Assembly: GCA_964016885.1 (NCBI GenBank)
Contig: OZ024763.1
Span: 27,032,001-27,096,000, forward strand
Source: Eledone cirrhosa
Taxonomy: Eukaryota
Direction: 5' to 3'
DNA length: 64,000 nt
Of this stretch, positions 270-3,170 are shown piece after piece. The position numbers and the translations under genes were made by a program. The notes below the pieces were generated by a model. The model was given only the letters and a program-made list of their open reading frames with translations. It made no database searches and had not been told where the DNA came from. How positions within the stretch are numbered: position 1 is the stretch's first letter; each line of letters starts with the position of its first letter.

Positions 270-991
270 GAAAAATATTGTAAGGTGTCTCAATAATTAT
301 TCCATTTCAATCAATTTCTCATTTCAGTTTTCTTTAGAAATATCTTGGCGTTGAAGATTTGTCCTCATAGTAATTAGCTTGTCTCAAAATTGTTCGCAGT
401 GTTTCCATGTTTAGTGTCACAAACTATCGTTAATACATGTTACTTTTAAAAGAGTGAAGCTCTCAATTTTTTCTTTCTCTTCTATATTGATATCTAATGA
501 ATGACAAATGTATGTGATAGGAGAAAAACCACACAGCCTCCTTCCCTCGCTATAGAAGGCTAACTGACAATGTCGTTCGTAGGAGTAACAAGTCACCTCT
601 TACTGCCTTTTATATACCATGTTAACTGGAACGACTTTCCAAGTATGGATACACTCTCTCCTTATCAATATTGTCCGAGTCCGAGGACATTTTCTCCCTG
701 GTTAAGGAGTGAGATAAAATATTAGGGATCAATCTCTAGCAATAATTTAATTAAATTATATTTAACCAAAGCTGTTATGTCGTGGTTGTTGTTATATTTT
801 ATAGTCGTGGTTTCAATGTTTATGAGGGGTTGTAGAATTAGTTTTATCTAATTATTATCAAACAAAAATGATGTATATATTGTCGTTGTACGTTGAAATC
901 ACATATATACATTTATATACACACCAAGGATGGAGGGAAGACGGAATTGAAAACCATTATTGCTGAGCACAACATTGCAGGATCAAATATA

Positions 992-1026
<35 letters not shown>

Positions 1027-1250
1027 ATCAGGTATAACCATTGATGAATATCCCTGCAGATCATCAGGTTGTAGGATGAAATCAACCCTAGAGAAATGAT
1101 AAGGTATATTTTATGGAAGCTTGAGAAGAATAAAAATGAAAGTGAACCATTTTGAATTAATATCATTGGGAAAGCCATGAAGGCCACTACATCAATTTTT
1201 CTTTTAAATAGAAAGTAGGTTTATAAATTTTAATTTTGATAGTATTTTTG
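270..1250 (-). pseudogene. Decayed TLR-like remnant, subtype 'a' (LRR part at right, TIR part at left)
   Basis: Inverted homolog of the + strand remnants, e.g. revcomp AATTCTACAACCCCTCATAAACATTGAAACC vs AATTCTATATCCGCAGCTAAATATTGAACTCC. TIR-box1-like VWFFSYH near 515-535 and LKW near 301-310. Many stops and frameshifts. Confidence 0.5.
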
Positions 1251-2250
1251 TAGTTGTCTTGGTAGCCTATTGGTAGGTGTTGGGACAGTGGTGATGCTGG
1301 TCTGGGGTTCAATCTCAGTCAGGAATCTCTCGAGAAATTTAATTTTTTAAATTTTTCATAAAATGAACGAAAAATAGAGGTTGCAGGAATCTGACTGAGA
1401 TCGAACCCCAGACCAGAATGTCCAGCACCTCTAATACTTATCACTAGTCTATAGAGGCGGTTATAAAAACTTACTGAAAATAAATATTTATAAACCTACT
1501 TTTTCAATTTTTTTATAAAAACAAAATTTCTGTACAAGGTTTTCATGTACACCTGACAGAGATCGAACCCCTAATCAATATCACCACTGTCTCTAATGTC
1601 TACCACTAGACCACTGAGACAGTTATGAAATCGTAGTGAAAATTAATATTTATAAACTTACTTTTTAATGGTTTTTATTTTAGAAGAGGTAAACTAAAAG
1701 TTAATAATACCCATAATGTAGAACCAGATAGAGATTGAACCCTAGACCAGGATTTCACCGTTTCTAATACATACCACTGGGCCAGAGAGAATGTACGAAT
1801 TCGTAGTGAAAATTAATATTTATAAAACTACATTTTGTTCGGAAGTAATTCAAATAAACTATTGTTTCTGACGATCCCGTAACAAGTTGAAAGCAGTGAT
1901 TCTTTGCTTAAACTTTAATTTGTACTCATAATAAATAAATAAACATATGTATTTATGTGTGTATACATGTATATGCGTTGCTTTGATGCTATTTCTAGTA
2001 TATTTATTGTTGTTTTTCATGAAAAATACAGAAACCGGAAGTGAAAAGATTGAAAATCTTTGGTCAAAATTCATGCGAACTTTTTTAAACAAAAGGATTT
2101 TTTTTGTAAACAAACTTGAAATTTTTGCCAAGAAACATAACTCTTGCCTGACTTAAACGCAAAAATTGATGCAAAAACTTTGCGTGTGTGCAAATTATAG
2201 GGAGTGTACGAATTCGTTCTGAAAATTAATATTTATAAAACTACATTTTG
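1211..2250. repeat. Palindrome centre with tRNA-like A/B-box cassettes: one on + (1255-1325), three on - (1391-1460, 1552-1620, 1725-1790), plus a partial flank copy
   Basis: Consensus GTCTCGGTGGCCTAGTGGTAGG...GGTCTAGGGTTCGATCTC has A-box and B-box-like motifs. Each copy is preceded by AAAGTAGGTTTATAAATATTAATTTTC. Confidence 0.7.
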
Positions 2251-3170
2251 TTCGGTTGAAAACTCGATGTAGTGGCGTTCATGGCTTTTTCGGGACGTCC
2301 TTGAATTCATAAAGTAAATCTAGACTTTATTTCTCATTGCTCTAGGCTTGATTTGAACCTACAACAACTCCGTCTGCAATAATGTCATACCTCATTCCAG
2401 CTTAGTACGTCGTACCCGTAAATTGTTAAACGTGGTTCCTATATATACATGCAAGTAAGATTTGAACCTACAATGCTGTGCTTAATTTCTATTAATAAGT
2501 GTGTTTTATAAAAGAAAGTAAAGAAACAATTTAATGAAAGTAAAAAATTTATTTTATTCAGGAATGTTTTTTTAAATTTTATGTATTCACTTCATTAACT
2601 GCTGAATAGTTCTCTTGTTTTTGTTTGTTCTTACCATTGTTTACTGTAAATGGTGACTGTGACTAGACTGGATTATTACCAAGTTTTACTGGATGATGGC
2701 ATTTCCTTATTTTGTTGTCAGTGGACATCTCTCTAAATACCTGGAATAAACATAAGGTGTGTCTTTTACCTAACATTTCATTTAAAATCTGATGTTCCAA
2801 TGGATTACTTTTAAAATAAAACCAATAAATAGGACAGGTAGACTCCATCAAAAGAGACCACAGAGATGAGGTAGGAATAATCTAAAATTAATTTAAAAAA
2901 AAAGACAATGTTTAAAGAAAGACAAACATTAAAAAAGGATTTCCAACAAACACGTAAAGACAAAGACAATCACATCCACAATTTAATATCTGAAGATCAA
3001 CATTTTCCACGATATAAATAAAACTAAATATGTAAAGTTAAGTGACCTCTCATTTATTTGCTCTAACTTTATTTTACTAATCTGTATTCTGTAGACATAT
3101 ATTTTCGTTGGTGTACCTTACGATTTCGTTGATGAAAGTTTTCAGTCGTCTTTAGATCTTTATTTCTTAT
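2230..3170 (+). pseudogene. Decayed TLR-like remnant, subtype A
   Basis: Hydrophobic stretch, then YCKW*L*LDWIITKFYWMMAF near 2642-2705. TIR C-terminal-like VDIYFRWC at 3091-3114. Disrupted. Confidence 0.55.

What the first reader, a model, noticed from the sequence alone, without database searches (positions are those of the whole stretch)
745..2490. TLR-like remnants sit head-to-head as palindromes whose arms appear to co-evolve within each unit
Seen: left and right arms are inverted homologs, most similar near the centre and more diverged outward. Diagnostic bases are shared between the two arms of one unit rather than between same-side arms of different units. A-type units have CTGGTCTGGGG..CTCAGTCAG on both arms, C-type units (27.8 and 31.4 kb) have GATCCTGGTCT..GGCCAGGA on both arms. 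Seven or eight such palindromes recur. Inference: arm-to-arm gene conversion, or selection for a long RNA duplex. Read-through would give a stem of several hundred bp of TLR-derived dsRNA, a candidate hairpin-RNA/endo-siRNA source against intact TLRs or an ADAR substrate.
Basis: partly seen in the sequence, partly recalled or inferred. Interest (0 to 1): 0.75.

Follow-up and report, generated by a model that had tools for sequence, protein, structure and literature searches.

The report
Convergent tRNA-derived two-hairpin RNA genes
The palindromes are face-to-face pairs of a non-coding repeat with no sign of Toll-like-receptor coding sequence; each arm has tRNA-type promoter boxes behind a TATA box and likely makes a ~75-base RNA, probably descended from a tRNA, that is predicted to fold into two hairpins instead of a cloverleaf, a likely new family of small RNA genes.

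Summary
The palindromes are real (8 in the window), but no TIR or LRR coding trace was found in them. Each arm holds a fixed-spacing module: an 18-bp upstream box, a TATA box, a hypervariable 16-bp spacer, a ~74-nt body with tRNA A and B boxes, and a T-run. There are 24 clear bodies, convergent in pairs, with extra tandem copies. The bodies no longer fit a cloverleaf. A two-hairpin fold is 84.6% paired with 7 doubly changed pairs and beats a tree-aware neutral simulation. Young duplicates diverge about 5-8 times faster inside some transcribed units than in flanks, as at active tRNA genes. Arm co-evolution is limited to short inner tracts, chiefly a perfect 51-bp inverted repeat in one unit, whose centre is deleted in 5 of 6 copies. 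Outer arm parts group by side, and G-U mismatches show no strand bias, so selection for a long duplex is unsupported. Best reading: a segmentally amplified, tRNA-derived Pol III small-RNA family whose 3' hairpin mimics the acceptor/T-arm minihelix. Expression is untested.

The parts
1030..1110 (+). Distal block shared by left and right arms, about 200-250 bp upstream of the body; marks the outer end of the inverted homology; role untested
1176..1193 (+). A1-left upstream box (PSE-like by position; inferred)
   Evidence: 46-48 bp before TATA in 10 of 10 copies that have it; 77-81% identity against 30-54% on either side
1213..1238 (+). A1-left TATA block (TATA at 1222)
1239..1254 (+). Hypervariable 16-bp spacer (inner 5' flank)
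   Evidence: 54/96 identical between same-side copies against about 75% in flanks
1255..1328 (+). A1-left two-hairpin body, A box at 1263, B box at 1306
1329..1386 (.). Shared centre with T6 on + (1343-1348) and T5 on - (1370-1374): candidate Pol III terminators for both arms
1387..1459 (-). A1-R1 body, the palindrome partner; hypermutable among the four A duplicates (17 of 73 sites vary)
1476..1501 (-). R1 TATA block (no upstream box)
1549..1621 (-). A1-R2 body (tandem copy)
1638..1663 (-). R2 TATA block (no upstream box)
1720..1792 (-). A1-R3 body (tandem copy; no longer folds well, z=+0.93)
1808..1833 (-). R3 TATA block
1850..2200 (.). Insertion with a ~50-bp direct duplication that separates R3 from its upstream box in A1-A3; absent in A4
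   Evidence: (A4 63770-64000 matches A1 2211-2444)
2221..2283 (-). Orphan promoter: upstream box (2266-2283) and TATA block with no body behind it
2560..2720 (+). Right flank outside the inverted arms; its C2 paralogue translates to a hydrophobic stretch that is the only TLR-like signal found (E=0.18); frame not kept among paralogues
20037..21191 (.). Unit A2 (L, R1, R2, R3, orphan promoter)
24268..24992 (.). Unit B1, best-folding pair (z=-4.5 both arms)
24539..24708 (.). Perfect 51-bp inverted repeat (24539-24589 / 24658-24708): last bases of both bodies plus 3' trailers
27530..28251 (.). Unit C1
31101..31810 (.). Unit C2 (young duplicate of C1; left copy has a 12-bp promoter deletion)
35058..35374 (.). 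Unit D, decayed pair (left lost its 3' hairpin, right lost its promoter)
55790..56937 (.). Unit A3
60140..60517 (.). Unit B2, centre deleted (lacks B1 24500-24692)
63079..63850 (.). Unit A4 (R3 with intact upstream box)

Best explanation
Each palindrome is a convergent pair of non-coding repeats with a TATA box and tRNA-type A and B boxes, likely RNA polymerase III genes descended from one tRNA gene, each predicted to make a ~75-90-nt RNA that folds into two hairpins instead of a cloverleaf. Shown in sequence: the modules, their fixed spacing, the inverted and tandem layout, the spread by multi-kb segmental duplication, and the short perfect inverted tract in B1. Inferred: an old inverted duplication of one gene with its ~250-bp upstream region made the first pair; an upstream box plus TATA and the internal A/B boxes recruit Pol III (a type-2 hybrid promoter); each arm stops at its own T-run in the shared centre, so the normal products are two short RNAs and not one long hairpin. 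Inferred from covariation: the old acceptor 5' strand now pairs with the old anticodon 5' strand under the D hairpin, and the old anticodon 3'/variable strand pairs with the old acceptor 3' strand under the T hairpin. The 3' hairpin (6-8 bp, an invariant bulged U, 5 bp, T loop) would mimic the acceptor/T-arm minihelix, so the RNA most likely works as a non-decoding tRNA mimic that binds, or is cut by, T-loop-reading enzymes such as RNase P/Z (least supported step). The palindrome itself is likely a by-product: DNA-level template switching copies short inner tracts and deletes centres. Several copies are decaying.
For: Non-coding. 24 bodies at E<1e-11 under a model built from 13 of them, plus two damaged ones. 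tRNA geometry: a pattern of the family's A box, B box and spacing retrieved 157 loci in which ARAGORN called 149 tRNAs; for the five best tRNAs the parts outside the boxes aligned better than shuffles (0-8 of 500). Spacing: box to TATA 46-48 bp in 10 of 10 copies with the box, TATA to A box 40-42 bp in 10 of 12 bodies, A to B box 43-44 bp in 11 of 12. TATA block 136/156 identical, spacer 54/96, flanks about 75%. T4 or longer starts 29-49 nt after the T loop in 12 of 12 copies, none inside 11 of 12 bodies; background 21.5% and 8.9% (copies not independent). Two-hairpin fold: 84.6% paired, 7 pairs changed on both sides, 1/500 shuffles; cloverleaf 75.4%, 65/500. Tree-aware neutral simulation: 0/95, 0/400 and 0/54 runs reach the observed pairing; new helix P1 (95% paired) 2/333, 0/71, 3/395. 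8 of 10 copies fold with z -1.6 to -4.5. Bulged T and T-loop T, T, A invariant in 15 of 15. Local hypermutation: A R1 unit 29/147 against 36/894 (p=5e-10); C units 20/245 against 16/1434 (p=8e-9); R1 body 17/73 against its partner arm 2/74. This matches the pattern reported for active tRNA genes (PMC6130373 and 10.1101/661942, passages). A bulged acceptor/T stem-loop is a reported minimal substrate of eukaryal RNase P (PMC4797305, passages).
Against: No expression data. Bodies are no more conserved in sequence than flanks (330/438 = 75%). The structure was chosen from these same sequences; doubly changed pairs beat the simulation from 2 of 3 start leaves only (3/95, 146/400, 0/54), helix P2 alone from 1 of 3 (27/64, 0/513, 13/30), D+T arms from none (62/256, 106/494, 17/164), and cloverleaf acceptor+anticodon pairs also partly exceed the null on percent paired (20/295, 4/667, 22/572). 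The D stem is only 73% paired. R3 and D_R do not fold. Many new changes in A3_R1 and A4_R1 fall in stems and at the B box. B_R shows no hypermutation (1/75). R1 and R2 lack the upstream box. Rfam and ARAGORN at default see no tRNA and real tRNAs score at most 14.9 bits on the family model (60 of 157 loci tested), so tRNA descent rests on boxes, length and collinearity; the isotype is unresolved. No copy was found outside this window.
Confidence: 0.6

Rival explanations
1. Dead passengers: tRNA pseudogenes or tail-less SINE heads carried along by segmental duplication, perhaps still transcribed from intact boxes, with RNA products that do nothing; the two-hairpin fold is an ancestral accident.
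For: Body identity equals flank identity; several copies are broken or unfolded; B centres are repeatedly deleted; hypermutation needs transcription but not function.
Against: New helix P1 is kept at 95% with stepwise C-G to U-G to U-A paths and beats the tree-aware null; promoter blocks are conserved above flank level at fixed spacing; no shared SINE tail or target-site duplication, and flanks are homologous between units.
Confidence: 0.25
2. One reading: read-through across the palindrome gives a long dsRNA (endo-siRNA source or ADAR substrate) that is kept by arm-to-arm conversion or selection.
For: Predicted long-range duplexes if read through; perfect 51-bp inverted repeat in B1; A-type G-U mismatches lean to the + strand, 14 against 5 (not so in B, 6/8, or C, 4/7); weak by-unit grouping of the A inner 40 nt.
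Against: Outer arms group by side; 41 of 85 mismatches are transversions; T-runs on both strands before the partner arm; centre lost in 5 of 6 B copies; covariation is within arms; no TLR target.
Confidence: 0.08
3. A mobile element: a foldback DNA transposon whose terminal inverted repeats are the arms, or a TRIMp3 (Helenus-like) non-autonomous LTR element whose tRNA-like LTRs form the tandem copies.
For: Arm homology ends at a shared motif on both sides; B's left flank differs from A's and C's; R1-R2-R3 are direct repeats about 165 bp apart.
Against: A and C share both flanks and A, B and C the right flank, as expected of segmental duplication; the gaps between tandem copies are unrelated to each other; genome-wide copy number unknown.
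Confidence: 0.05
4. Decayed Toll-like receptor genes.
For: The single PDB hit of the 120-aa frame at 32402-32761 is the TLR3 transmembrane/juxtamembrane peptide, E=0.18.
Against: Not significant; outside the arms; frameshifting indels among 9 paralogues and no codon-position bias (69/60/80); no relative among 5.8 billion proteins; no TIR or LRR in Pfam scans.
Confidence: 0.02

Closest known systems
Pol III type-2 hybrid-promoter small RNAs: vault RNA, nc886, BC200, snaR (PMC12193147, passages)
   Same: Short non-coding unit with internal A/B boxes plus upstream elements and a T-run end; clustered paralogues; derived from an older Pol III gene by remodelling.
   Different: No Rfam match; 5' and 3' ends do not form a conserved panhandle (end-to-end helix 64% paired); tRNA-like and not 7SL-derived; convergent pairs.
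Rodent BC1 RNA (recalled: tRNA-Ala/ID-derived, refolded into a rod)
   Same: tRNA ancestry with loss of the cloverleaf and a new fold; upstream promoter elements.
   Different: No A-rich middle or unique 3' domain; two hairpins that keep D- and T-loop motifs; multicopy through segmental duplication. Comparison from memory, not tested.
Cytosolic tRNA genes and tandem tRNA clusters
   Same: Length, A/B box spacing, T-loop motif, hypervariable inner 5' flank, T-run terminator.
   Different: Acceptor and anticodon stems not kept; no canonical anticodon loop; not called by ARAGORN or Rfam at default.
tRNA-derived SINEs of molluscs (PMC4758252, passages) and TRIMp3 Helenus (PMC10886601, abstract, passages and section 4.1)
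   Same: tRNA-derived sequence that does not decode, with A/B boxes.
   Different: Conserved sequence lies upstream of the body, which retroposition would not copy; no shared body or tail; flanks duplicated with the unit.
Type-3 snRNA promoters, PSE + TATA (PMC1761439, passages)
   Same: A conserved ~18-20-bp box at fixed distance upstream of a TATA box, tolerant of only 1-2 bp change.
   Different: Box start to TATA is 46-48 bp here, longer than the 33-35 bp implied for insect PSEA (positions 1 and 34); identity with this host's U6 PSE could not be tested; internal A/B boxes retained.

Membership tests
Toll-like receptor gene remnant | TIR or LRR domain homology | tested here: not met
Toll-like receptor gene remnant | Transmembrane/juxtamembrane segment in a kept reading frame | tested here: not met
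   E=0.18 hit outside the arms; frame broken and no codon bias
Hairpin-RNA / endo-siRNA locus | Long arm-to-arm duplex possible | tested here: met
   (prediction only)
Hairpin-RNA / endo-siRNA locus | Arm differences biased to keep pairing on one strand | tested here: not met
   24 against 20 G-U type, 41 of 85 transversions
Hairpin-RNA / endo-siRNA locus | Read-through transcript, siRNAs or A-to-I editing | not testable with these tools
   no RNA reads were examined
Cytosolic tRNA | A and B boxes at tRNA spacing, ~72-75 nt | tested here: met
Cytosolic tRNA | Cloverleaf with paired acceptor and anticodon stems | tested here: not met
   acceptor 63.7% paired, no covariation beyond shuffles
tRNA-derived SINE | tRNA-like head | tested here: met
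tRNA-derived SINE | Shared body/tail, target-site duplications, unrelated flanks | tested here: not met
tRNA-derived SINE | Dispersed high copy number | not testable with these tools
   no genome held
TRIMp3 (Helenus) | Two direct LTRs around a shared internal part with PBS and PPT, 4-5-bp TSD | tested here: inconclusive
   gaps between tandem copies are 47-56 bp and unrelated; PBS, PPT and TSD not searched formally
Vault RNA / Y RNA | Rfam model match | tested here: not met
Vault RNA / Y RNA | Conserved 5'-3' terminal stem | tested here: not met
   helix 1
Pol III hybrid-promoter gene | Upstream box and TATA at fixed spacing plus internal A/B boxes | tested here: met
   (R1 and R2 lack the upstream box)
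Pol III hybrid-promoter gene | T4 or longer shortly after the body, none inside | tested here: met
Pol III hybrid-promoter gene | Upstream box is the host's snRNA PSE | not testable with these tools
   no host genome; pattern scan found nothing
Pol III hybrid-promoter gene | Pol III occupancy and transcript | not testable with these tools
   only the indirect mutation pattern

The most novel reading that the evidence does not exclude
An expressed, functional multigene family in which a tRNA switched from cloverleaf to a double hairpin by strand exchange, acquired an snRNA-type upstream promoter, and is cut by RNase P/Z at its bulged 3' hairpin to release a ~35-nt acceptor/T-arm minihelix RNA that diversifies through Pol III-driven hypermutation: a natural tRNA-to-minihelix small-RNA class, probably in an octopod.
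Probability: 0.2. Interest if true: 0.82.

Novelty: new variant of a known kind. Interest (0 to 1): 0.55.

Why it matters
If expressed, this is an unannotated lineage-specific Pol III small-RNA family that tRNA finders and Rfam miss. It would be a natural case of a tRNA re-pairing its strands into two hairpins while keeping D- and T-loop motifs, with a 3' hairpin shaped like the minimal RNase P substrate. The cluster also shows on one stretch how such genes evolve: inverted then segmental duplication, local hypermutation of some copies, short-tract copying between arms and repeated loss of the most perfect palindrome. The upstream box is a testable candidate for this animal's snRNA promoter element, useful for guide-RNA expression tools.

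Tried and rejected
No whole genome is held, so copy number elsewhere is open. Sequencing-run search: no RNA holder listed; 3 runs of one study held 0.45-0.47 of the words. No reads were laid on the window, so expression and a read-level check of the assembly stay open. Two pattern scans of metagenome contigs (3' hairpin; upstream box plus TATA) gave 0 hits. Rfam: 0 at gathering over the window; only generic hairpin or lncRNA matches below gathering. ARAGORN default 0; relaxed thresholds touch some bodies but give 54-210 calls, so they carry no weight. blastn of one body against phages gave 4 chance hits. Protein searches of the TLR-like frame: 0 of 10 candidates at E<=1; Pfam only sub-threshold hydrophobic hits for 3 of 7 ORFs. 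Sawyer-type test: the only pair passing correction was cross-unit, A_R3/C_L, p=0.036. Earlier scan notes: nothing by place, sequence or words. Literature searches that showed no description of this family: (listings only; open-access library; supplements not read, and repeat libraries such as Repbase could hold it). Isotype: best reference tRNA Glu(ttc) 47.7 against His 47.1 and Gly 45.4, unresolved. A Y-RNA Ro-stem likeness of the 3' hairpin (recalled) was dropped: the bulge is U and the stem does not join the ends.
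Full report
Context. The window is AT-rich animal DNA with microsatellites, GA-rich satellites, SINEs and a LINE-like fragment. The SINE sequence looks octopod to me from memory; no call names the host. It is built from nested multi-kb tandem duplications, 65-96% identical. No genome is held.

Observation. Inverted arms exist at 1212-1502 and at six more sites, plus a decayed pair near 35.1-35.4 kb and a centre-deleted pair near 60.3 kb. 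The four A units are young duplicates (90-96%), C1/C2 likewise, so the eight palindromes stand for about four old lineages (A, B, C, D). In A units the right side has three tandem copies (R1-R3) and an orphan promoter.

Not Toll-like receptor. Six frames of 901-3000 gave 0 Pfam families at E<=5; six frames of 27101-29200 gave one unrelated hit at E=0.7; the left-arm frame gave no PDB hit. The only TLR-like signal is a hydrophobic frame in the right flank whose one PDB hit is the TLR3 transmembrane peptide at E=0.18. It lies outside the arms, has no relative among 5.8 billion proteins, and among 9 paralogues shows frameshifting indels and no codon-position bias.

What the arms are. Each arm has an 18-bp upstream box, a TATA block, a 16-bp spacer, a ~74-nt body with A and B boxes, and a T-run. 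Spacing is fixed: box to TATA 46-48 bp in 10 of 10 copies with the box (13 examined), TATA to A box 40-42 bp in 10 of 12 bodies, A to B box 43-44 bp in 11 of 12. Across 7 lineages the box is 77-81% and the TATA block 79-87% identical, with 54% between them and 30-50% further upstream. T4 or longer begins 29-49 nt after the T loop in 12 of 12 copies and is absent inside 11 of 12 bodies; background is 21.5% and 8.9%. A model built from 13 copies finds 29 matches at E<=1: 24 at E<1e-11, two damaged copies (5.7e-5, 0.018) and three weak ones that I treat as chance. A pattern of the two boxes and their distance fetched 157 loci with 149 ARAGORN tRNA calls; for the five best, the parts outside the boxes beat shuffles (0-8 of 500), but the isotype is open. 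Rfam and default ARAGORN see nothing, and real tRNAs reach only 14.9 bits on the family model (60 of 157 loci). So: tRNA-derived by inference, but a distinct family. In gene sense the pairs are convergent.

Fold. Single-sequence folding gives two hairpins, with z from -1.6 to -4.5 in 8 of 10 copies; R3 and D_R fail. On 13 aligned copies the two-hairpin structure is 84.6% paired, with 7 of 20 pairs changed on both sides, and 1/500 shuffles reach its pairing or covariation score. The best cloverleaf is 75.4% paired (65/500 and 96/500), its acceptor stem 63.7%. Because shuffles ignore kinship, I simulated neutral change on the tree from three existing copies with site rates kept (1200 runs each, kept only if the number of differences was near the observed): 0/95, 0/400 and 0/54 reach the observed pairing; the new helix P1 2/333, 0/71, 3/395. 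Weaker results: P2 alone 27/64, 0/513, 13/30; D+T arms 62/256, 106/494, 17/164; doubly changed cells 3/95, 146/400, 0/54; cloverleaf acceptor+anticodon 20/295, 4/667, 22/572. The signal therefore rests mostly on P1, and the structure was derived from these sequences. The bulged T between P2 and the T stem and three T-loop bases are invariant in 15 of 15 copies. A bulge at that junction is what eukaryal RNase P is reported to need in acceptor/T stem-loop substrates (PMC4797305, passages).

Indirect sign of transcription. Old paralogous flanks are about 75% identical; the TATA block is above that (136/156), the spacer far below (54/96, p=8e-5) and the body equal (330/438) (pairs not independent). 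Among young duplicates, differences crowd into transcribed parts: A R1 spacer+body+centre 29/147 against 36/894; C units 20/245 against 16/1434. In A the effect is one-sided (R1 body 17/73, partner arm 2/74), and most new alleles are not those of the partner arm, which fits gene-specific mutagenesis better than cruciform damage or conversion. Active tRNA genes show this in their 20-bp inner 5' flank (PMC6130373 and 10.1101/661942, passages). Against: B_R shows none (1/75), C>T plus G>A make up only 10 of 27 polarised changes at R1, and assembly error could not be excluded.

Co-evolution of arms. Within units identity is TATA 91%, spacer 52%, body 75%, so it does not fall from the centre outward. 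Trees of the outer 78 nt join left arms (A_L+C_L 89, with B_L 74); the inner 40 nt join A_L with A_R1 at 66. AU tests on 9 representatives: by-unit p=0.049 (5' hairpin), 0.076 (outer), 0.08 (inner), 0.25 (all); by-side never rejected (0.14-0.58). The C-type motif is near the common state. The clear case is B1: a perfect 51-bp inverted repeat over the body ends and trailers, in arms otherwise about 76% alike. Of 6 B-type copies 5 lack the centre, in four distinct breakpoint patterns; whether those copies had the perfect repeat before deletion is inferred, not shown. Mismatches between arms are 24 and 20 G-U type by strand and 41 transversions. A read-through RNA would form a long imperfect duplex, but nothing suggests that it is selected.

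Mechanism and comparison. Most likely each arm is a Pol III gene with a hybrid promoter, as described for vault RNA, BC200 and nc886 (PMC12193147, passages), with an upstream box placed like an snRNA PSE (PMC1761439, passages, though the spacing is longer). It is not a member of those families, nor a tRNA or SINE by the tests listed; Helenus-type TRIMp3 (PMC10886601, abstract, passages, section 4.1) fits poorly. I commit to a non-decoding tRNA mimic whose 3' hairpin presents an acceptor/T-arm minihelix. My odds: non-coding tRNA-type units rather than TLR remnants about 0.95; past selection on the two-hairpin RNA about 0.65; some copies transcribed now about 0.6; processing to a minihelix RNA about 0.2. 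Eight literature searches (listings only) showed no description; supplements and repeat libraries were not seen.

Verdict. Observation partly confirmed, interpretation partly supported; the real content is a probable new tRNA-derived small-RNA family. Interest 0.55; new variant of a known kind.

Noticed in passing
window 17660-17985 and 52988-53302: A tRNA-headed SINE with an inverted copy of its own 3' half directly upstream, the whole flanked by a ~19-bp direct repeat: a palindrome made by one insertion event, unrelated to the main family.
   Followed up: partly
window 4525-4620, 11970-12087, 23541-23637, 37145-37242, 47322-47439, 59339-59435: A ~100-120-bp self-complementary element in two different contexts, MITE-like.
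   Followed up: no
window 5229/5246, 18439, 38150/38170, 53764, 60290: Deletion junctions that remove the centre of the B-type palindrome, leaving orphan promoters at 5269(-), about 18405(+) and 53730(+).
   Followed up: partly
window 6130-9000 and 39300-44360: Strongly skewed GA-rich satellite arrays of 3 and 5 kb.
   Followed up: no
window 9880-11293 and 45160-46386: 24-31-bp minisatellite arrays whose ends score as relaxed tRNA-Pro in ARAGORN at 90% threshold; probably chance.
   Followed up: no
window 12062-12481 and 47431-47889: LINE-like protein fragment with 333 relatives; RTE type by recall.
   Followed up: partly
window 14358-14435 and 49681-49757: A second tRNA-headed SINE whose A box is nearly the same as the family's.
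   Followed up: no
window 27580-27790: C-type left arms carry a ~117-bp tandem duplication that doubles the upstream box.
   Followed up: no
window 2330-2400(-), 24950-25020(-), 28230-28300(-): The distal arm block on right arms contains its own B-box-like motif; on left arms it reads closer to an octamer. Either a SINE relic or a distal promoter element.
   Followed up: no
L045, L046, L054-L056: One contig of a bacterial MAG holds the same tRNA-pattern match five times at 3738-bp spacing, a tandem array or an assembly artefact.
   Followed up: no
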